DNA from: a virus
Lineage: Duplodnaviria > Heunggongvirae > Uroviricota > Caudoviricetes
Strand: one strand, 5' to 3'
IMG/VR virus record: IMGVR_UViG_3300019458_000004
Location: 1-64,000 of that record
Length of the DNA: 64,000 nucleotides
Shown: positions 29,386-56,719 of the stretch, in pieces
How the letters are laid out: every line of letters begins with the position of its first letter
Position numbering within the stretch: position 1 is the stretch's first letter
Position numbers and translations under genes: made by a program
Notes under the pieces: generated by a model
What the model saw: the letters and a program-made list of their open reading frames with translations, nothing else
What the model was told of the DNA's origin: nothing
The model's database searches: none

Positions 29386-29414
29386 AAAAATCCTCGGATA
29401 AAAAACGCCAAACG

Positions 29415-29484
29415 GATTAAACGAGAAGAGTCGAACTTCCATCTCTTGAAGTTAATCAAGCGCTTACCAACTAAGCTACGTCTC
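29415..29484 (-). ncRNA. tRNA-like element with non-canonical 6-nt anticodon loop (possible second Y-RNA/tRNA mimic or degenerate tRNA)
   Basis: Acceptor TGAGACG/CGTTTAA (one mismatch, one GU), D-arm GCTT-AGTTGGT-AAGC, stem CTTGA/TCAAG enclosing the 6-nt loop TTAACT, T-arm GGAAG-TTCGACT-CTTCT. Followed by GGCGUUUUUU. Confidence 0.4.
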
Positions 29485-29527
29485 ATACAGGTTGAGATAA
29501 CCGTTCAACTTTCGACCCGAATTTTAA

Positions 29528-29672
29528 AAATTTTCTGGATAAAAGGCGTCATGGGAAACCCCTTTCGGGAATGATTTGCTCTACCAACTGAGCTACAATC
29601 ATCTTTCGATGATTGACGGGATTCGAACCCGCGACCCAATCTCCATATAACCCATTAACTACGACCCAGAAA
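29528..29672 (-). ncRNA. Y-RNA-like ncRNA (YrlA-type) with permuted tRNA-like module, immediately downstream of the Ro60 orthologue
   Basis: On the minus strand: T-arm GCGGG-TTCGAAT-CCCGT, helix CAATCATC-GAAA-GATGATTG (acceptor-like stem closed by a GNRA tetraloop), D-arm GCTC-AGTTGGTA-GAGC, possible terminal stem UUUCUGG/CCAGAAA, then a U-run. The 5' end overlaps the last codons of the vWA ORF. Confidence 0.45.
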
Positions 29673-31218
29673 TAAACCTATTAATAACCTCAGTAACCGT
29701 AGAATCAAATCCCACAATTCGAAGAACGTTCTTATCGTTCATTTCAAAGTTTGAATATCCCCCAGCAACCATACCAACCTCAATAACCTTTACATCAAGA
29801 TTAATTTTACGATACAAAGCCAATTCTTGTACTGAGTGTGAATTACCAGCCCAAGTCTCGTTATCCGTTAGAATAACAATCACATCATACTTATTCTTAG
29901 TATGAAGAGCATACTTAATAGCTAGAGAACAGTCAGTTCCACCACCATTTGGCGTTCCACGAAGAATTTCATCAAGAGAATGCCTTCGACCAATTTGAGG
30001 CACCATAACCTTGGTATCAAACCAAATAAGCTCTGCATTAGCTTCAGAACGCATAATAGCCATTGAAAGAGCAGCCGATACATCCTTCGGAGTAAGTCTA
30101 GATTTATTAATCGTAGCCGAACTCATGCTGCCCGAAACGTCCACCGCCAAGAGAATACTCTTTCAAGTCGGCACAAGCACTTCTAAAGCCGCGTAATATG
30201 CGTTATTTAGGGCGTCATTGATGTTTTGATTGGGCGTCCACATCTTATTACCCAAATCGCCATGACCGCTGCTATAAACGCGTAGAGCATTTAATAGGGT
30301 CACAGAATGAACTTTAGATTTCTTAATGTTTTCAGCACTTAGCTTATTAACAATAGCCTTAGTCGTTTCACTGTTTCCAACCGTCATTCCGTTGCTAGCA
30401 AAACGGTTAAGATTACGAAGAAGAGCAAAAACTGGCATATTAACCAACAATGCATCAAGAATAGCCGGGGTATTCAATTGTTCATTAGGAATCATTTTCC
30501 AGGTCAAACGATATTCCTTAATGAATTCGGCAAGATCCTTGCCTTCCATCATTTGAGCTTTTTCAAAGGCAGCTAGAAGGTTATCTTCCGGAGCCGTTCC
30601 TTCTTCTTGAGTTAGATACTGGAAAATGTAATTATGTTCCGCCGAAGAAGCATGAGAAAGACGAAGAACGTCACGATGCTGAAAACCTTCACGATTTCGG
30701 TACTTTACAACTTGATACTCAACGTCCTTTGGCGTTTTAAGAGTATACCATTTAGAAACAGCAGTTCGAAGACCGCGTGACCAGCCACGAAGATTTTGCA
30801 CATTCGCTAGAAACATGAAAAGCTGAGTAGCGGTATTAAGAACACCAGGCATAGGAATTGCCGCATAAACCGCCTTTTTAACTTCCGCAGTTCCATGGGC
30901 AGCCAAAAGAGCCAATACAAATACAGAAGGATCAACCTTTGGAGCCTTCTTATTCTTCAAAACGTCAACAACAGTGCTAAGAACCTTAAACCCATCTTCC
31001 TTAATGTAATTAATTACAGCATTAGCATTTTCAACCGTTAAAGTCTGCTTATCAACATAATACGTTCCTTCTTCGGAACCAATAAGAAGAAATCGTTCAA
31101 GAAGTTCTTGATTGGTCACAGCAAAACTATAACCACCAGCATTATTCTTAACCATGGTTTTACCAGGAATAGGTTGTGTTTGATGCGTCTTTGAAATCAT
31201 TTTTGAGTAATTTCCCAT
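29659..31218 (-). CDS. rsr: Ro60/Rsr orthologue (TROVE domain + C-terminal vWA/MIDAS), interrupted by one in-frame TGA (30163-30165)
   Basis: ORF 30163..31218 is TROVE-like. ORF 29659..30150 has vWA MIDAS LAVDVSGSM..TDN. They are in the same frame and separated only by TGA: ..EVLVPT*KSILLAVDVSGSM. Confidence 0.7.
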
Positions 31219-48928: not shown

Positions 48929-49225
48929 TTATTTTCCTCCGCATTGGCAGCCTGAAACCAACAAAACCTTATAAAAATCACAAAAACAAGTTTTAGATTC
49001 TTCTATTTCATTTTCAAACCAATCAATAAGCTCAAAGTTTTCAGGTAGAATTGATTCTAAATCATTTGGAAAAATAGAAATGTCAGAACAACTTTTAAAA
49101 AGATCTGTTACTTCAAAACCATCAGAAGTAAACATATTACAAAATAAGTTTTCATTATTACCTACGTAAAAAACAAATGGTTTATCATATCCAGTCACAG
49201 AAATTAGATCTCCAATAGTTTTCAT
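48929..49225 (-). CDS. hypothetical protein
   Basis: 98-aa ORF. Confidence 0.35.
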   Translation of the reverse strand: MKTIGDLISVTGYDKPFVFYVGNNENLFCNMFTSDGFEVTDLFKSCSDISIFPNDLESILPENFELIDWFENEIEESKTCFCDFYKVLLVSGCQCGGK

Positions 49226-49506
49226 CTTTTACCTCTAAAAAATTTCTTAACATCTGATAAAAACGTTGGCAGCAACCGCATTGCGATATCAAGATTGGGT
49301 TCTTGAATTGCTTTCTCCATTGATTCTGCTTCAATTCTGATAAAATCTTCAGTGTTATCAATATCTTTCACAACTTCCATTCTTTGAAGAATTTCAATGT
49401 TACGAATTGCTTTTTCAATATCCAGGGTATTCTTATTCTTCCTAAGACGTTCTAAATCTTCAGGAAGAATGAAAGTTATGTTTTCATTTTTGCGTTCAGC
49501 ACTCAT
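49222..49506 (-). CDS. hypothetical protein
   Basis: 94-aa ORF; a TTGACA-17-TTATTA promoter-like element lies upstream on the minus strand at about 49545-49582. Confidence 0.35.
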   Translation of the reverse strand: MSAERKNENITFILPEDLERLRKNKNTLDIEKAIRNIEILQRMEVVKDIDNTEDFIRIEAESMEKAIQEPNLDIAMRLLPTFLSDVKKFFRGKR

Positions 49507-49693
49507 GCCCTTATTAAATGCAAACGGTTTGCCAAAGCTAAGTATTTGATTTTTAATAACCCCTTAATTATGTGAATGTCAAAAAACTAAGTAGGTTTTA
49601 GGATAAGCCAATAAATACAAAGATGTTATGTTTTTATACAATGTCAAAACTATTTACATTGCATCTTAATACTAAACCAGTTAATATGGTTAT

Positions 49694-50257
49694 ATGATAA
49701 CGGCGATTTATTTAAGAGTGTCCACCCAAGATCAATCTACTGATTCACAACGTGCTGAAATTGATTTATTTATTAAAGCAAAAGGCTATACAAACTTTCG
49801 GGTTTATGAGGATAAAGCAACCGGCACTAATAACAATAGGCCAATGCTTAAGAAGTTATTGCAAGACTGCCACGCTGGGCAGGTTAGCATTGTAATATGC
49901 TACAAATTAGACAGATTCTTCCGTTCTCTTAAAGATCTAATTAATACGCTGCAGCAATTAGACGAATTAAAGATTGCTTTTATTTCATTACGTGACAACG
50001 TAGATCTTTCAACCCCTTCTGGTCGCCTAATGATGCATATGATCGGCGCATTCGCTGAATTCGAAGCAAGCCTTATTCAGGAACGCGTTAAAAGCGGTTT
50101 AAAGGCAGCCAAACAGCGAGGGGTTGTCTTGGGTCGGCCCAAGCTTCACGAACCCTCTATAGCCCGTTTAATGCGAAAACAAGGGCATTCTATAAGAGAG
50201 ATCAGCCGAAAGTTAAACATTCCGAAGAGCACAGTTAACGAATTAATTAGAACATAG
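49694..50257 (+). CDS. small serine recombinase (resolvase/DNA-invertase family, Hin/Gin-like)
   Basis: IYLRVSTQDQ (catalytic Ser), DRFFRS, C-terminal HTH IREISRKLNIPKSTV. 187 aa; the only plus-strand gene inside the minus block. Confidence 0.85.
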   Translation: MITAIYLRVSTQDQSTDSQRAEIDLFIKAKGYTNFRVYEDKATGTNNNRPMLKKLLQDCHAGQVSIVICYKLDRFFRSLKDLINTLQQLDELKIAFISLRDNVDLSTPSGRLMMHMIGAFAEFEASLIQERVKSGLKAAKQRGVVLGRPKLHEPSIARLMRKQGHSIREISRKLNIPKSTVNELIRT

Positions 50258-50583
50258 CCCATTGACGATTTAGATGATATCTGAAATAAGAGTTTTCAAG
50301 TACAACATTTTTACCATCAAACCAATAAACATCTTTTCTATGAATTAAACCGTCAACCCAATAATGGGCATATAGATTCTTATTCAATCGACGTGTTTTA
50401 TCCTGTGGACGTACTTCTATATCCTCAGAATGAATTTCAACTTATCAGTTAAATCTTTATCATCTTTAGATAAAGTAAACTTAAAATTATAACTATTTCC
50501 ACACGCCGTGTTAGGTAAACAAATCATCTCAACAAAATTAGGCAGTTCGCCTCTTACTTGATATTTAAAACTACTTCCAGATC

Positions 50584-50889
50584 TTAATCATAACACTGTT
50601 CCATATTCAAATATTTTAAATGAACATAATAAACAGTACTTGAAACAGTAATACCTTTTGGCGAAACTGAGAATTCTAAATTTTTGCGTCTGAAATAAGA
50701 ATTCCCATCTTCACCTATTTCAACTGCAATTTCATATTGTTTACGTCGTCGATCACTAACGGTTTCAACTTTGTAAGTTTGTTTTAAAGATTGAACAATT
50801 TCATTTAAGAATTCAGCATTACGTTTTAATGTTTCCAGATTGGACACAACTTCATTCGAGATCAATTTTTGAAACATACAATACCTCAT
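50584..50889 (-). CDS. hypothetical protein
   Basis: 101-aa ORF. Confidence 0.35.
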   Translation of the reverse strand: MRYCMFQKLISNEVVSNLETLKRNAEFLNEIVQSLKQTYKVETVSDRRRKQYEIAVEIGEDGNSYFRRKNLEFSVSPKGITVSSTVYYVHLKYLNMEQCYD

Positions 50890-51320
50890 TTTAAAATTAG
50901 TTTAAAAATATTCGCTTCGGCATTCCTTAAATATTCTAATACCTCATTCGAGGTTCCAGAAAAGGTATTAAGATCCTTAGCACGTTGTTTATACGTTTCC
51001 AAACGGGTTAGATGCCCTTTGGAGATCGGTTTTCCCTCACGTTTGGTATAACGCTCGGAAACGGTTTCCGCTGATTCAATTATGAATACAGGATTGACCT
51101 TGAAACCCGCCCTTGTTAACGGGTCAACTAATTCAGACACACTAAAAGGCGTTTCAATTAGAATAGGTTTGGTTGCAATACTACCAAGTTCTAGAATTGT
51201 AGCTAAGTATGTTTTCTTATATTGATCGTGCGCGAAATACTCATATTGATCTTTTAATTGATTACATATTGTGGTTTTCCCCGATCCGGGGACGCCGACA
51301 ACTAGGTATATTGGTTGCAT
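50886..51320 (-). CDS. P-loop NTPase/kinase
   Basis: Walker A VVGVPGSGKTT. Confidence 0.45.
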   Translation of the reverse strand: MQPIYLVVGVPGSGKTTICNQLKDQYEYFAHDQYKKTYLATILELGSIATKPILIETPFSVSELVDPLTRAGFKVNPVFIIESAETVSERYTKREGKPISKGHLTRLETYKQRAKDLNTFSGTSNEVLEYLRNAEANIFKLILK

Positions 51321-52009: not shown

Positions 52010-52651
52010 TTATTTAGGTAAAAATACTTCGCCGATAACTTTCAATCTTTTAACCCTTACTTTTCCGCCAGCGCACCCGATAATATTTTTTATATGTACT
52101 TTAACGGCTATAAGTGTATCCCCTTCATTCCAGAAGTTAGGTGTTGAAACATGTAAACCATTAGAACACGACACGATTGAATTCTCATTGTATTCTTTAC
52201 AGAGTGCAATTTCGCCATCGCGGTAAATAAATTCCGAATCATGTAAACTTCGATATTCACCGTCCTTAATTTTATTAACTTTTTTATAGAATATATAAGT
52301 ATTTTTAATTGGAATTATATCCAAAGCACACCCGATCAATGTTTTAATGCAGTCTTTTAAATCAATTTTAAAGACACCGAATTTAAGCCAAATTTCACCG
52401 TAAACCTGCGCATCGCCGTAAACCTGCGCATCGCCGTAAACCCGCGCATCGCCGTAAACCCGCGCATTGCCGTAAACCCGCGCATCGCCGTAAACCCACG
52501 CATTGCCGTAAACACTCAAATTTTTTTCAGATTCAATATATCCACCAATTTCACCTTTTTTAACAAACCCGAATGCTGTAATACATTCGATTCTGAAAAG
52601 TTTTCGACCAAAAATATCAACCGATAAATCTGTTCGTAATTTATATTTCAT
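52010..52651 (-). CDS. hexapeptide-repeat (VYGDAR)n protein, possible beta-helix
   Basis: VYGNAW-VYGDAR-VYGNAR-VYGDAR-VYGDAQ-VYGDAQ-VYGE, encoded by an 18-bp tandem DNA repeat at about 52375-52500. Confidence 0.45.
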   Translation of the reverse strand: MKYKLRTDLSVDIFGRKLFRIECITAFGFVKKGEIGGYIESEKNLSVYGNAWVYGDARVYGNARVYGDARVYGDAQVYGDAQVYGEIWLKFGVFKIDLKDCIKTLIGCALDIIPIKNTYIFYKKVNKIKDGEYRSLHDSEFIYRDGEIALCKEYNENSIVSCSNGLHVSTPNFWNEGDTLIAVKVHIKNIIGCAGGKVRVKRLKVIGEVFLPK

Positions 52652-53123: not shown

Positions 53124-53640
53124 GGTCGCGCTACGATAACCTTGGGCGGCATGCTAAATAGTCAATTTATAAATCAGAGAAAACAGAACAATTGAATACG
53201 CAAACAATATAGCTTTGTATTCTTGCTTCATTGTATCCTCCTAATTTAGGAATTCAATTAAAAGAAAACCGATCACTGCGTCAGTCCAGCCCGCAACGGA
53301 ATACCCTAACAACGTAGGCTGCAACGCTTATTATATACACCTCATCCTTTCTTGCAACGCTTGATGCGTCGCACTAATTAAATAATACAGGAAGCATGCC
53401 AAACGAATTCTCTTTTAAATACAACGAGCGCCTATTTTTTTGCGCATAACAATTATACAGAAAACAGAATACTATAAGGAATATATAGCTGTTAAGAATC
53501 TATATAGTGTATATTAGTTTAACATATAGCCGATATAACAATCCTGGGTTGTTATTTTAGTGTGTAAAGTAAACTTTATACCCGATAAGGTATAAGTTAA
53601 AATTAATGAGTTTAAACAGAACGTGTATTAGGGATAAGAG
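53124..53640. promoter_or_regulatory. AT-rich non-coding region with iteron-like repeats (candidate origin or divergent control region)
   Basis: No ORF. Repeats TGCAACGCTT x2 and (A/C)TATATAG(C/T) x3. Hairpin CCCAAGGT..ACCTTGGG. Sits at the minus/plus strand switch. Confidence 0.3.
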
Positions 53641-53977
53641 TGTATGTAATACCCGTCTTGACTAAGCGAGAGCCCGGACATGAGCGCGTGCCCGAGGGGC
53701 CGTGAAGCGGGGTGCCCGCGCGTACCAAGGGATGATCGGGCGAAAGCTCCGCGCCGAAGTAGATCCCTTCCTTCTGGTCGGGACGGCCAGAGGTTAGCTC
53801 CTGGCCCACCGGAAAGTAGCCCCGCCACGCGCGATTGGCGCGCGACATGGCGATCTTCATTTTCGTGGCGAGGTCGAGAGCGAAAAAATGACGGCTGACC
53901 GCCTCGAGATATTGCTCGAGTTGGGGATCAATGCCGTGATGGGTGACGTCGAGGACAAGCGGACGAATGGGCTTCAT
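53612..53977 (-). pseudogene. fragment of a high-GC 2OG-Fe(II) oxygenase (isopenicillin-N-synthase-like), central part
   Basis: ..[76 protein letters not shown]. Lies in a high-GC island unlike the rest of the genome. Confidence 0.5.
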
Positions 53978-54039
53978 GGGGATGACGTTACCAGCAGGCC
54001 GGCGGAATTGACAGCGCCCGGAACCCGTTGGATTCTGGG

Positions 54040-54165
54040 GCTCCAGTGGTTCTCGTCATCGATATCTCACCGTTACTCAAGCCCGGCCTAGACGCTAGCC
54101 CGACCGCCTCCGCGTTGGGCCAGGCCTGTCGGGAGCACGGCTTTTTCTACGTCACCCACCGCGTG
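54040..54165 (+). pseudogene. N-terminal fragment of the same 2OG-Fe(II) oxygenase in inverted orientation
   Basis: Plus-strand frame gives [38 protein letters not shown], then diverges. It shares the 10-bp ACGTCACCCA with the minus-strand fragment. Confidence 0.4.
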
Positions 54166-54424
54166 TTGGAGCTTCCCCGCACGCCGGATCGCCCCCGACG
54201 AACTTGAAGCGATCCTTACCCGTCTTCGCATCAAACACGTGAGTCGTGCCGTCTCGGTAGCCGCCGTGGACCCAGAAATACTTGCAGTCGGGACTGAAGA
54301 TCGCGAGGCCCCCGTCGGGGATTGCTCGCGCCGGCTTCTTGCCCTCGATAAAACAAAGCTCCCACGAATACTCGCTCGTCGCGACGAAGAAGAGCTCGCT
54401 CCCCTCGCAATGGCGCCCGAGCAT
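54152..54424 (-). pseudogene. fragment of a WD40/TolB-like beta-propeller protein (high-GC origin)
   Basis: IFSPDCKYFWVHGGYRDGTTHVFDAKTGK resembles a propeller blade. Confidence 0.3.
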
Positions 54425-54572
54425 ACAATCCTCTCGTAGCTATGTCCGGTATACTGTGCCACCCCCAGGGGGTAGGTACTTCAAGAAGGACGGCACGCAC
54501 TTGTAGGTTAACACGCATAATTTTTCTATTTTTTGCTGGTCATATTTCATACCTAAATTAACAACTTATAGT

Positions 54573-55226
54573 ATGGAATATAAAATATGTAAAATTTGTG
54601 AGATAAAAAAACCCTACTTTTTTAAAAAATTAAGCTCAAATAGAGTAAAAATTGCTAAAGACGGTGAAGGTCATAATTGGCACGGAAATACTTGCTGGGA
54701 GTGCGTAAAAAAATCTAAAAGAAAGCCAGAAAAATTTTATACTTGTTTTATTTGTAACAAAGATTTTGCTTCTGCAAGAAGCGGGATAAAATTTTGCTCT
54801 TCTGGTTGCGCTAAAAAGGTTCATAGTGGGTATAAAAGAAAAGTTCCTATTTCAAAAGAATGTTTGGTTTGTAAGTTCATTTTTTCTTCGGCTCAGCCTA
54901 AAAAGCTTTATTGTGGAATAAAATGTCATAAAAAAGGCCAAAAACAAACAGAATGGTTTAAGGCTTATAAAAAAGGCCAAAAAAGGATAGAAAGACGAAC
55001 AAAGCGTAAAGCCAAGCTAAAAGGTGTTAGTTGGTTAGATATTGAGGTAGTTTATAAACTATGTCCGCCAGGCCGGGAAGTAGATCATATTATTCCTCTC
55101 AGACATAAACTTGTTTGTGGTTTACATGTTCCTTGGAATTTACAATATTTATCAAAAACCGATAATAGCAAGAAATCTAATCTATTTGATGGCACTTCAG
55201 AAAATCTTAGTTGGAAAAAATCCTAG
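54573..55226 (+). CDS. HNH endonuclease with N-terminal zinc fingers
   Basis: Multiple CxxC pairs, then [11 protein letters not shown]...[10 protein letters not shown]. First gene of the plus block. Confidence 0.65.
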
Positions 55227-55510
55227 TTACATTTTTAAGCTTAACTATATCCCAGGCTCAATATGATTCTAGTTACAAGAATCACTTGTCCCCACTCGGT
55301 TACAAAACACTCTTTATAGGCTTGTTTTTATAGAAATGTCCCCGAACGGTTACAGCGGGATAATGTTTACCATTACGTAATAAGATACTAACAAGATAGT
55401 ATAGTTTTGTAGTTATCTTAGTGTGTGTATTATGCGCGAAAGGGTAGGAGTTGAATGGCAGAATAAAAGGGTCTTATTTTGTGTTTATTTGGCTTATAGG
55501 AGCTTCTCAA

Positions 55511-55762
55511 CTATTCGGCAGGGGGTTCAGAGGGGGCTCCTGCAATTTGGCTTATAGCGTCAAGGAATTGGCCTATTTTAAGTTTAACACACTCGTTAAT
55601 CGCTTCTTCTGAGGCTTCTGGTAACTCTTTTCGGCAGACTGGTTCAAAATAGGCGGTCATTGCAATCTGATCTACAGTAATTTGAAAATTCACAGTTCCA
55701 CTATGCTCTTGCTTCATGGCACAGGCACTGAAAAAGAACAATAAAAGGATTAGGTATTTCAT
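55511..55762 (-). CDS. putative lipoprotein
   Basis: MKYLILLLFFFSACAM with a lipobox-like FSAC. AGGAG RBS. Confidence 0.4.
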   Translation of the reverse strand: MKYLILLLFFFSACAMKQEHSGTVNFQITVDQIAMTAYFEPVCRKELPEASEEAINECVKLKIGQFLDAISQIAGAPSEPPAE

Positions 55763-55794
55763 ACAACTCCTAGCTTTATATTAGGCACAAAATA

Positions 55795-55824
55795 AGTATA
55801 TCATATTACTTTTCCTATGTCAAA
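55795..55824 (-). promoter_or_regulatory. sigma70-like promoter (TTGACA-18-TATACT) for the lipoprotein gene
   Basis: On the minus strand: TTGACA at 55824-55819, 18-nt spacer, TATACT at 55800-55795. Confidence 0.35.
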
Positions 55825-56152
55825 ATGAATATTATGCCGGTTTTGACAATTCTAGTTACGGAAAAGTCTTCAATTTGAGAGTCAGTAAGAGTTGTTGATT
55901 TTTAGAAATCTGTGCGAAAAATGTCATGAAATATGGGTATTTTTTGTGGCTAGTGGATTTGGTTTTTGGGCATTTATTTTGAAAAACCCGTTAATTTATG
56001 ACGTTTTTAAAAAATTCGATCCCATTTTTTGGGATTTTATTTTTCGAGGGTTCTAAAGGGCTCCTAGTTAGGGAGATAATTTAGGGATGAGATCATAATA
56101 ATATTAACAACTAATTCTAGTAACACATACTTTTTCGGGATTTTAGAGGATT

Positions 56153-56719
56153 ATGAAAAAGGCAGTTTTTTTAAATAAAGAGCTTAATAAATTCCTAGTT
56201 ACAAGTTCTTGTCCGGGGGTTTTTGGGTTCATAAATTTTATTGAGAAAAAGGTGTGGTTAAGCTACTCAGAAAACGTCACCGAAGCGTTAGCAAGGAATA
56301 TAAAATTGATTGAAACCCGCCAACATTCGATTAAGAATTTAGAGTATTGGGATATATGCGTTTTTGAGAAAAGCGCCAGTAAACAAGAAGCCAAGAATAA
56401 CTTCCGACTTTATTGTCAAAGCTACCGGAAAAAGGGGCTTCAAATCTTAAATCGAGAGTTTAAGTATAGGGTATGGGGGGGTATAGAAGAAGACTTTCGG
56501 GATAAAACCCGCTTTTTGTATTATATTTGGATAGGCACGAAAACTAAGAAGCTAGCTATTCTAGGAATATTTGATAAGGCGGTTGAAGGCGAGCGGTATT
56601 TAAAAGAGTTTCAAGAAGGCAACGCTGTTGAATTTCCTCCAAGTTCTAAGAGATTAGTGATAGAATATAAAGGAACAGACTTAAACCAAAAAGAATTTAA
56701 GCAAATTTTTAAGCCATGA
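56153..56719 (+). CDS. GIY-YIG-like nuclease (weak)
   Basis: PGVFGFINFIEKKVWLSYSENVTEALARN fits the GIY-x10-YIG..R spacing. Confidence 0.4.
   Translation: MKKAVFLNKELNKFLVTSSCPGVFGFINFIEKKVWLSYSENVTEALARNIKLIETRQHSIKNLEYWDICVFEKSASKQEAKNNFRLYCQSYRKKGLQILNREFKYRVWGGIEEDFRDKTRFLYYIWIGTKTKKLAILGIFDKAVEGERYLKEFQEGNAVEFPPSSKRLVIEYKGTDLNQKEFKQIFKP

What the first reader, a model, noticed from the sequence alone, without database searches (positions are those of the whole stretch)
49507..50583. Hin/Gin-type small serine recombinase with no obvious invertible segment
A 187-aa resolvase/invertase (catalytic Ser in YLRVSTQDQ, C-terminal HTH) is the only plus-strand gene inside the 53-kb minus block. 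It is flanked by about 190 bp and about 325 bp non-coding stretches containing palindromes (GCAAACGGTTTGC; CAATGT..ACATTG) and ATGTCAAAA repeats. In Mu, P1 and e14 such enzymes flip tail-fibre segments. Here the target could be a cryptic switch, a multimer-resolution site (phage-plasmid lifestyle), or the inverted fragment in the GC island.
Basis: partly seen in the sequence, partly recalled or inferred. Interest (0 to 1): 0.55.

Follow-up and report, generated by a model that had tools for sequence, protein, structure and literature searches.

The report
Conserved phage serine recombinase, target unknown
A small DNA-cutting-and-rejoining enzyme gene in an uncultured, lytic-looking phage is real, intact and kept by selection, but nothing nearby can be flipped by it, and the "palindromes" beside it belong to the neighbouring gene's promoter, so it is an ordinary family member whose target is still unknown.

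Summary
The ORF 49694-50257 (+) is a genuine 187-aa small serine recombinase. It has the Resolvase domain (E 1.6e-43), Ser10 and a C-terminal HTH. Five related metagenomic phage contigs carry it at the same position and orientation (75-85% identity, dN/dS 0.03-0.13). It is therefore a functional, selected gene.

The suspected recombination sites do not hold up:
- GCAAACGGTTTGC is the minus-strand motif TGGCA-N6-TTGCA, a sigma-54-type -24/-12 element. It is conserved in 6 of 6 relatives, with variable spacers, just upstream of the neighbouring gene.
- The TATACA boxes sit at fixed distances from that element, not from the recombinase.
- The AATGTCAAAA repeats and the 23-bp dyad occur only in this phage.
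- Half of the 326-bp downstream "non-coding" stretch is the decayed tail of the next gene.

No inverted-repeat pair exceeds chance around the gene, within 39-60 kb, or in the 11 kb of structural genes examined (window 62.1-64 kb plus about 9.4 kb beyond it). The GC island is absent from relatives that keep the enzyme.

The closest characterised proteins are the Gin/Cin invertases (41-44%). The defining invertase features that could be tested are not met.

My best guess (about 0.35) is a resolvase-like, self-regulated recombinase acting on phage DNA at an unidentified site. This is a new member of a known kind and of modest interest.

The parts
49694..50257 (+). Small serine recombinase gene (187 aa). 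Residues include Ser10, Arg8, the D73-R74-x-x-R77 block, the E-helix, a GRP arm and a C-terminal HTH.
   Evidence: Pfam PF00239 at E 1.6e-43. PDB matches: Gin 4m6f at E 1.2e-27, gamma-delta resolvase at 1.8e-20 aligned over residues 6-185. PHROG 125 'DNA invertase' at 5.7e-60. dN/dS is 0.03-0.13 against five orthologues.
49507..49693 (.). Divergent control region between gene A (minus strand) and the recombinase (plus strand).
   Evidence: No ORF. Alignable with L003, L054, L002, L001 and L053.
49519..49534 (-). TGGCAAACCGTTTGCA, a sigma-54-type -24/-12 element lying 12 nt upstream of the gene A start codon.
   Evidence: It is the only exact match in the window. It is present in 6 of 6 relatives with spacers AACCGT, AACCCC, ATCCCT, ATTTGT, GACCCC and GAATGC, and lies 12-13 nt from the ATG in 5 of 6. 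The same motif heads the divergent region in L001, L002 and L005-L007.
49539..49551 (-). IHF-like WATCAANNNNTTR match (AATCAAATACTTA) abutting the -24 element.
   Evidence: Read directly from the sequence. The region is conserved in L003, L054 and L002. Its function is inferred only.
49624..49640 (.). 17-bp box TGTTATGTTTTTATACA (form YGT-N11-ACA), the one box conserved in all relatives.
   Evidence: It lies 105-106 nt from TGGCA in five loci and 95 nt in L053. Extra boxes occur at -59 and/or -152 in relatives, 46-47 bp apart. I read it as part of the gene A promoter (UAS-like); that reading is inference.
49639..49661 (.). 23-bp near-palindrome CAATGTCAAAACTATTTACATTG, specific to this phage. 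It overlaps the putative -35 of the recombinase promoter and is a possible operator.
   Evidence: Searches show the dyad. It is absent from relatives.
49575..49584 (+). First AATGTCAAAA copy; the second is at 49640-49649.
   Evidence: These are the only two copies in 64 kb. They are not found upstream of the recombinase in relatives.
49659..49687 (+). Putative recombinase promoter TTGCAT-17 nt-TAATAT. The -10 ends 6 nt before the ATG and there is no Shine-Dalgarno, so the mRNA may be leaderless.
   Evidence: Read from the sequence. It falls below the threshold of the consensus scan. L003 and L054 also have a -10-like hexamer 6 nt before the ATG. This is inference.
50420..50889 (-). Minus-strand gene interrupted by a TAA stop (50584-50586) and a 1-nt frameshift. 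Its 3' part fills much of the 'non-coding' stretch.
   Evidence: tblastn of L054 1470-1832 gives two HSPs, 50739->50587 and 50581->50420, both at 53% identity.
49222..49506 (-). Gene A (94 aa, unknown function), the conserved left neighbour of the recombinase.
   Evidence: It has 54-68% identity homologues beside the recombinase in L001, L002, L003 and L054. No family match.
50886..51320 (-). P-loop kinase-like ATPase (144 aa), the conserved right neighbour of the recombinase.
   Evidence: It has 59-67% identity homologues in L001-L003. Weak ATPase and guanylate-kinase PHROG hits.

Best explanation
The gene encodes an active small serine recombinase. It belongs to a short rightward cassette embedded in the leftward early arm of a clade of roughly 80-90 kb, virulent-looking tailed phages. 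It is not a Hin/Gin-type switch enzyme with a local invertible segment.

Shown:
- The enzyme is intact and syntenic in six phage contigs.
- It is under strong purifying selection.
- It is better conserved than its neighbours.

Also shown:
- The sequence features beside it are the sigma-54-type promoter (with phased upstream boxes) of the neighbouring gene, a phage-specific dyad over the recombinase's own putative promoter, and a decayed gene.

Inferred mechanism: recombinase dimers bind a site pair that has not yet been identified, probably on the phage's own replicating DNA. They carry out a resolution or deletion-type (or cyclisation-type) exchange through the usual Ser10 phospho-serine, double-strand-break and subunit-rotation chemistry. 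The 23-bp dyad at 49639-49661 would then act as an operator for autoregulation, as in res-type systems.
For: - Family and catalytic residues.
- The gene has the same position and orientation between gene A and the kinase-like gene in L001, L002 and L003; in the short contig L054 it sits next to a gene A homologue, and in L053 downstream of the same promoter element.
- dN/dS is 0.03-0.13 with synonymous sites near saturation.
- Protein identity is 75-85%, against 54-68% for the flanking genes.
- The protein aligns end to end, HTH included, with gamma-delta and Tn3 resolvases (residues 6-185), but only to residue 153 with Gin.
- The gene sits divergently from a neighbour across a 160-190 bp control region containing repeated boxes, which resembles the tnpA-res-tnpR layout.
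- No inverted-repeat pair exceeds chance.
- It is not next to tail-fibre genes.
- No orientation difference of the cassette is seen among six relatives or among three assemblies of the same sample.
Against: - Sequence similarity is slightly higher to invertases (Gin E 1e-27 against gamma-delta 2e-20; PHROG 'DNA invertase'; Cin-like plasmid genes at 43%).
- The conserved boxes keep a fixed distance to the sigma-54-like element, not to the recombinase start, and show only weak dyad symmetry. They probably do not form a res site.
- The dyad over the recombinase promoter is not conserved, although the recognition helices are.
- A phage that encodes a RecA-like protein and endonuclease VII and packages by headful has no obvious need for multimer resolution.
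- No recombination site has actually been identified.
Confidence: 0.35

Rival explanations
1. It is a DNA invertase whose invertible segment lies elsewhere. The segment could be among the tail-fibre genes in the part of the genome not examined (about 16 kb of the 89-kb contig). Alternatively its crossover sites may be too short or degenerate to detect, as with master invertases that act at distant sites.
For: The closest characterised relatives are Gin/Cin/P2-type invertases at 41-44% identity. PHROG 125 is annotated 'DNA invertase'. There is a weak match to the Mpi master-invertase model (70.7 bits against a cut-off of 272). Only about 74 kb of at least 90 kb could be inspected.
Against: No inverted repeat exceeds chance next to the gene, in 39-60 kb, or in the 11 kb of structural genes examined. 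Known phage invertases sit beside their segment. The cassette lies among small early ORFs. All six relatives and three assemblies show one orientation.
Confidence: 0.2
2. It is a small serine integrase, as in Ralstonia phage RSM, that inserts the phage into a host site. On this reading the phage is temperate despite its lytic-looking gene set.
For: It is 39% identical to the RSM1/RSM3 recombinase over 97% of its length. It is the only recombinase found in the window. Its bacterial homologues (52-61% identity) lie on integrative islands.
Against: No repressor, excisionase or partition gene was found among 45 plus 20 ORFs scanned. The phage carries its own DNA polymerase, primase-helicase, RNR, ThyX, RecA-like protein and endonuclease VII. 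The only genome-collection hit to its terminase is a 15.7-kb phage-only contig. On the bacterial islands a tyrosine integrase is also present, so the serine enzyme is not their integrase. No tRNA-like attP lies beside the gene.
Confidence: 0.12
3. It is a hitch-hiking or accessory cassette gene with no role in the phage life cycle proper. Its function would be maintenance or mobilisation of neighbouring cargo, as proposed for defence-linked small serine recombinases, or some non-recombination role such as a DNA-binding regulator.
For: The gene is about 40% GC against 31-34% for its flanks. The cassette content varies: orfU1 and orfU2 are present in L001, L002 and L053 and absent in the window, L003 and L054. 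The cassette is absent from the equivalent place in L005-L007, although their terminases are 75-90% identical. Small serine recombinases are reported as linked to defence cargo with their own role unknown (PMC13552941).
Against: No defence-family match was found in the neighbours. Position is fixed, with no sign of mobility. The catalytic residues are invariant and dN/dS is about 0.05-0.1, which points to retained catalysis.
Confidence: 0.25

Closest known systems
Gin / Cin / Hin / Pin DNA invertases (phages Mu, P1, e14; Salmonella)
   Same: About 190 aa, with an N-terminal catalytic domain carrying Ser10 in RVST-DQ, an E-helix, a GRP arm and a C-terminal HTH. These give the best PDB and database similarity (Gin E 1.2e-27; 41-44% identity).
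   Different: There is no pair of 26-bp inverted crossover sites and no invertible segment, and the gene is not adjacent to tail-fibre genes. The alignment to Gin stops at residue 153. Fis/enhancer dependence is unknown.
Tn3 / gamma-delta resolvase with its res site
   Same: The alignment is full length and includes the HTH (residues 6-185). The gene is divergent from its neighbour across a 160-190 bp control region that carries repeated TGT...ACA-ended boxes.
   Different: There is no transposase and no terminal inverted repeats. The boxes are phased to a sigma-54-type promoter rather than to the recombinase gene, and they are 17 bp long with weak symmetry instead of forming 25-34 bp dimer sites.
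Small serine integrase of Ralstonia filamentous phages RSM1/RSM3
   Same: It is a phage-borne small serine recombinase with 39% identity over 97% of the length.
   Different: The carrier phage here is a large tailed phage with a full replication module. No attP/tRNA-like site and no integrated copies were found.
Defence- or island-associated small serine recombinases (for example EF_B0058; PMC13552941)
   Same: The closest bacterial homologues (52-61%) are accessory genes on integrative islands that have their own tyrosine integrase. The function of such enzymes is also unresolved.
   Different: This one sits at a fixed position in a phage genome, with no recognisable defence cargo next to it.

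Membership tests
Small serine recombinases (resolvase/invertase family, PF00239 plus C-terminal HTH) | N-terminal catalytic domain with the nucleophilic serine in an RVST..Q motif | tested here: met
   PF00239 scores 148.7 bits against a cut-off of 23.3. Ser10 lies in YLRVSTQDQ and is invariant in 9 aligned homologues.
Small serine recombinases (resolvase/invertase family, PF00239 plus C-terminal HTH) | Conserved catalytic Arg/Asp residues and E-helix (gamma-delta R8, D67, R68, R71, E118/E124 region) | tested here: met
   R8, D73, R74, R77 and the AFAEFEASLI-ER helix are invariant in the alignment, and they align to Gin and gamma-delta resolvase.
Small serine recombinases (resolvase/invertase family, PF00239 plus C-terminal HTH) | Short C-terminal helix-turn-helix DNA-binding domain after a GR(P) arm, with total length of about 180-210 aa | tested here: met
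   The protein is 187 aa. G147-R148-P149 is followed by HTH hits over residues 156-187, all below the curated cut-offs. This part aligns to the gamma-delta DNA-binding domain up to residue 179 of that chain.
DNA invertases (Hin/Gin/Cin/Pin) | Two inverted crossover sites of about 26 bp flanking an invertible segment that contains or abuts the gene | tested here: not met
   The best inverted match between the two flanks is 15 of 20, inside the shuffle range of 14-16. Nothing stands out in 39-60 kb or in the 11 kb of structural genes examined.
DNA invertases (Hin/Gin/Cin/Pin) | Target segment encodes alternative tail-fibre or surface proteins, or a promoter | tested here: not met
   The neighbours are small ORFs of unknown function and a kinase-like ATPase. 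The terminase and portal genes lie 9-11 kb away.
DNA invertases (Hin/Gin/Cin/Pin) | Fis-bound recombinational enhancer in cis | not testable with these tools
   The host is unknown and no model is available for Fis sites in this lineage.
DNA invertases (Hin/Gin/Cin/Pin) | Both orientations present in a population | not testable with these tools
   No reads are available. Indirectly, three assemblies of the same sample and six related phages all show one orientation.
Tn3-family resolvases | A res site with three dimer-binding subsites immediately upstream of the gene | tested here: inconclusive
   There are one to three 17-bp YGT-N11-ACA boxes at 46-47 bp spacing, but they are phased to the TGGCA-N6-TTGCA element and have weak dyad symmetry.
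Tn3-family resolvases | Adjacent DDE transposase and 38-bp terminal inverted repeats | tested here: not met
   No transposase family was found among the scanned ORFs and no flanking inverted repeats.
Small serine phage integrases (RSM type) | An attP next to the gene that matches a host site (the 3' end of a tRNA gene), and integrated prophage copies | tested here: inconclusive
   No tRNA-like sequence lies beside the gene. The terminase search of 185,579 species genomes found only one phage-only contig. The host lineage may be poorly represented in that collection.

The most novel reading that the evidence does not exclude
The recombinase remodels the phage's own genome architecture. It could switch or fix large-scale arrangements of the early arm, or promote capture of foreign DNA at the neighbouring divergent region.

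The lead is that the closest relative (L003, 85% identical enzyme) carries the gene A-recombinase-kinase block joined directly to the Ro60/ThyX/replication block in the opposite orientation. That is equivalent to inverting about 21 kb (window about 30.5-52 kb) with one end about 3 kb from the recombinase. In addition, the divergent region next to the cassette differs in every relative and here holds a 65% GC island of bacterial gene fragments.
Probability: 0.06. Interest if true: 0.7.

Novelty: new member of a known kind. Interest (0 to 1): 0.3.

Why it matters
Small serine recombinases on phages are usually assumed to be tail-fibre invertases or integrases. Here one is maintained under strong selection in a phage group that shows neither an invertible segment nor any lysogeny gene. 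This adds to the growing set of such enzymes whose job is unknown.

The practical value of this follow-up is mostly negative and clarifying. It removes the proposed sites from consideration and leaves a defined set of six orthologous loci for biochemical site-finding.

The more unusual by-product is the regulatory layout. Conserved sigma-54-type -24/-12 elements, with phased upstream boxes, lie at the heads of transcription units in this phage group. If real, phage gene expression there depends on a host enhancer-binding activator.

Tried and rejected
1. Hin-type self-inverting cassette. I compared the two flanks for inverted and direct 20-mers, and the best scores fell inside the shuffle range.
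2. A local invertible segment. The inverted-repeat search of 39-60 kb returned only 70-80% AT-rich matches. The same held for the 11 kb of structural genes examined.
3. A large inversion mediated by sites at the L003 breakpoints. The best match between 30.3-31.75 kb and 51.9-56.2 kb was 18 of 24, equal to the null. The L003 junction also truncates the Ro60 gene, which argues for illegitimate rather than site-specific recombination.
4. AATGTCAAAA or the CAATGT dyad as the conserved binding site. Both are absent upstream of the recombinase in all relatives.
5. A shared dyad half-site near the gene across four loci. None was found; the only shared hairpin is a terminator between orfU1 and orfU2.
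6. An apparent swap of box order between 'short' and 'long' loci. This dissolved once distances were measured from TGGCA.
7. Contig ends as inversion breakpoints. The ends lie in tandem coding repeats.
8. The GC island as the target. It is absent from recombinase-positive relatives.
9. Defence cargo next to the gene. There were no PADLOC matches.
10. Accessory proteins. orfU1, orfU2 and the other small ORFs have no Pfam or PHROG function.
11. More relatives. The viral-contig and metagenome-contig scans with the recombinase found no close relatives.
12. A sigma-70 reading of the TGGCA element. The spacings to any -10-like hexamer are only 11-14 nt (sequence).

Full report
WHAT THE WINDOW IS

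The window is about 33% GC and has no near-identical record among deposited phages. It is a tailed phage.
- A roughly 53-kb leftward arm carries a DNA polymerase, a primase-helicase, RNR, an exonuclease and a Ro60-like protein.
- The same arm also carries ThyX, dUTPase, dCMP deaminase, a RecA-like protein, endonuclease VII, peptide deformylase and several homing endonucleases.
- A rightward arm starts with the small and large terminase subunits and a P22-type portal.
- None of the 45 plus 20 ORFs scanned matches an integrase (other than the gene in question), a repressor, an excisionase or a partition protein.
- The same sequence occurs on an 89,293-bp ENA contig and on two Logan contigs of run SRR7811943.

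THE OBSERVATION

The ORF 49694-50257 (+) encodes 187 aa beginning MITAIYLRVSTQDQ.
- It matches Pfam Resolvase at E 1.6e-43. Its last 30 residues give weak HTH matches.
- It aligns to Gin invertase (PDB 4m6f) at E 1.2e-27 over residues 6-153. It aligns to gamma-delta and Tn3 resolvases at E 2e-20 to 3e-18 over residues 6-185.
- Ser10, Arg8, the D-R-x-x-R block, the E-helix and the GRP arm are invariant among homologues.
- The upstream gap of 187 bp is real.
- The downstream 326 bp is not truly non-coding. A single ORF of relative L054 aligns across the TAA at 50584-50586 and, after a 1-nt shift, on to 50420. The neighbouring minus-strand gene is therefore interrupted, and its tail fills about half of the gap.

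RELATIVES AND CONSERVATION

A search of 5.8 billion proteins found an identical protein, five proteins at 75-85% identity, and then a drop to 61% or less. The five relatives all lie on phage contigs (L001, L002, L003/L004, L053, L054).
- In all of them the recombinase points rightward. In L001-L003 it lies between homologues of gene A (49222-49506) and the kinase-like ATPase (50886-51320); the short contigs L054 and L053 show only the gene A side.
- L001 and L002 continue into the same terminase and portal genes 3-4 kb further right.
- The recombinase is better conserved (75-85%) than its neighbours (54-68%).
- Pairwise dN/dS is 0.03-0.13, with synonymous sites close to saturation. The enzyme has therefore been kept functional for a long time.
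- Its GC content (39-43%) is higher than that of its flanks (31-34%).
- Its nearest non-phage homologues (52-61%) are mostly from Bdellovibrionota and Oligoflexia. In two of the three homologue contexts examined (P0057 in Bdellovibrio, P0007) they sit on integrative islands with their own tyrosine integrase. This hints at the source of the gene and possibly at the host.

Three loci (L001, L002, L053) have two further conserved small ORFs upstream in the same operon (44-61% identity), with a terminator hairpin between them in L001 and L002. The window, L003 and L054 have lost these ORFs.

Three other relatives with terminases 75-90% identical (L005-L007) have entirely different genes at the equivalent place. 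The cassette is therefore accessory at the level of the wider group.

THE SUPPOSED SITES

The palindrome GCAAACGGTTTGC is, on the minus strand, TGGCAAACCGTTTGCA.
- All six loci carry TGGCA-N6-TTGCA at this place, with six different spacers. It lies 12-13 nt before the gene A start codon in five of the six loci.
- The conserved halves are asymmetric (TGGCA against TTGCA), so the constraint is not a palindrome. It fits the sigma-54 -24/-12 consensus (established knowledge).
- A sigma-70 reading fails on spacing.
- It is the only exact match in the window. The same motif recurs on both strands in the divergent region of L001, L002 and L005-L007.

A 17-bp box (YGT-N11-ACA, containing TATACA) lies 105-106 nt from TGGCA in five loci and 95 nt in L053.
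- Further copies lie at -59 and/or -152.
- Their phasing follows the promoter element, not the recombinase start. The recombinase start is 60 nt away in the short loci and about 800 nt away in the long ones.
- I therefore assign the boxes to the gene A promoter as enhancer-like sites. This is inference.

The AATGTCAAAA repeats occur only twice in 64 kb, both in this gap, and with the 23-bp dyad they are locally non-random.
- They are missing from every relative.
- The recognition helices of the six enzymes are nevertheless almost identical.
- They cannot be the conserved target. Since the dyad overlaps a TTGCAT-17-TAATAT promoter-like pair ending 6 nt before the ATG, an operator is the simplest reading. 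This is inference.

SEARCH FOR AN INVERTIBLE SEGMENT OR PARTNER SITE

- Inverted and direct comparisons of the two flanks give scores within the shuffle range.
- The region 39-60 kb gives only 70-80% AT-rich matches.
- The 11 kb of structural genes examined (the last 2 kb of the window plus about 9.4 kb beyond its right end) gives nothing notable.
- No dyad half-site is shared among the loci.
- All six phages and three assemblies of the same sample show the cassette in one orientation.
- Contig ends that looked suggestive lie in tandem coding repeats.

THE GC ISLAND

The segment at about 53640-54470 is roughly 60-70% GC.
- It consists of fragments of a bacterial isopenicillin-N-synthase-family dioxygenase (best match 73% identity) and of a beta-propeller-like protein (by eye from the translation; not searched).
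- A 193-bp piece of it is inverted between 18-nt repeats.
- The island is present in all three assemblies but absent from L001 and L002, which keep the recombinase.
- It abuts an HNH endonuclease-like ORF.
- Its right edge replaces the rightward TGGCA-N6-TTGCA element that precedes a conserved G-run in L001, L002 and L005.

A conserved enzyme cannot have a target that exists in only one genome, so the proposed link is rejected.

A LEAD THAT REMAINS OPEN

In L003 (reproduced in a second run as L004) the gene A-recombinase-kinase block is followed by homologues of window 30.5->23.8 kb in the opposite orientation. This is equivalent to inverting about 21 kb.
- No repeats mark the corresponding places in the window.
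- The junction truncates the Ro60 gene.
- An old illegitimate rearrangement is therefore more likely than site-specific inversion.

FUNCTION

What is shown is a conserved, selected, catalytically intact small serine recombinase without a local switch. What it recombines is not shown. I rank the options as follows:
- A resolvase-like, self-regulated enzyme acting on phage DNA: 0.35.
- An accessory or hitch-hiking cassette gene: 0.25.
- An invertase acting elsewhere in the uninspected part of the genome: 0.2.
- A small serine integrase: 0.12.

The published observation that small serine recombinases accompany cargo without a known role of their own (PMC13552941) shows that this uncertainty is general for the family.

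VERDICT

The gene identification and the statement that there is no invertible segment are right. The proposed sites and the GC-island link are not supported. This is a new member of a known family and of modest interest.

Noticed in passing
window 49519-49534 (-); L001 9136, 11458, 12627; L002 1174, 5512; L003 1230; L005 3664-3890; L006 4807; L007 4982: Exact TGGCA-N6-TTGCA (sigma-54-type -24/-12) motifs mark the start of gene A in 6 of 6 relatives. They also cluster on both strands in the divergent region between the two genome arms of related phages. Phased 17-bp YGT-N11-ACA boxes lie at about -59, -106 and -152, and an IHF-like site lies next to the motif. No enhancer-binding ATPase was seen in the window. 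A phage group run from sigma-54 promoters would be unusual.
   Followed up: partly
window 53640-54470: A GC island of about 65% GC made only of bacterial gene fragments: a DIOX_N dioxygenase 5' part split and partly inverted between 18-nt repeats (53935-53952 and 54146-54163), plus a beta-propeller-like fragment. It is identical in three assemblies of one sample and absent from relatives. Its right edge replaces the rightward sigma-54-like element and meets a CCCCCAGGGGG run where relatives have G11. It could be real capture or a misjoin at a homopolymer.
   Followed up: partly
window 29659-31218 (-), 29414-29485 (-): A Ro60/TROVE plus vWA orthologue is split by one in-frame TGA (30163-30165), where L003 has Gly. 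Directly downstream lies a tRNA-like element (Rfam tRNA 42.6 bits; ARAGORN cannot assign an anticodon), which may be the tRNA-like module of a Y-RNA partner.
   Followed up: partly
L003 5200-5470 against window 30525 and about 52000: The closest relative has about 21 kb of the early arm in the opposite orientation relative to the replication block. The junction truncates its Ro60 gene, and the same junction appears in two sequencing runs.
   Followed up: partly
window 50420-50889 (-): A gene that is intact in relative L054 is interrupted here by a TAA stop and a 1-nt frameshift. It is either a pseudogene or a sequencing or assembly error.
   Followed up: partly
window 52010-52651 (-): This gene contains 18-bp tandem coding repeats (YGDARV / YGNARV). 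The copy number differs by one unit between assemblies, and the Logan contigs break there.
   Followed up: partly
window 55221-56202 (+): Five copies of T(T/C)CTAGT(T/A)AC lie on one strand in the gene-poor region before the rightward arm. The same motif appears in L001, L002 and L005. Only 3 of 100 shuffles reach the window-wide count.
   Followed up: no
window 53429-53525; L002 5545-5641; L001 12067-12219: A conserved non-coding block in the divergent region contains a TATACA box next to a leftward sigma-54-like element in L001 and L002. The -12 half of that element is lost in the window.
   Followed up: partly
window 1-45000: Several homing-endonuclease-type genes are present (two LAGLIDADG, one GIY-YIG, HNH/NUMOD). 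An HNH-like ORF at 54573-55226 lies next to the GC island.
   Followed up: no
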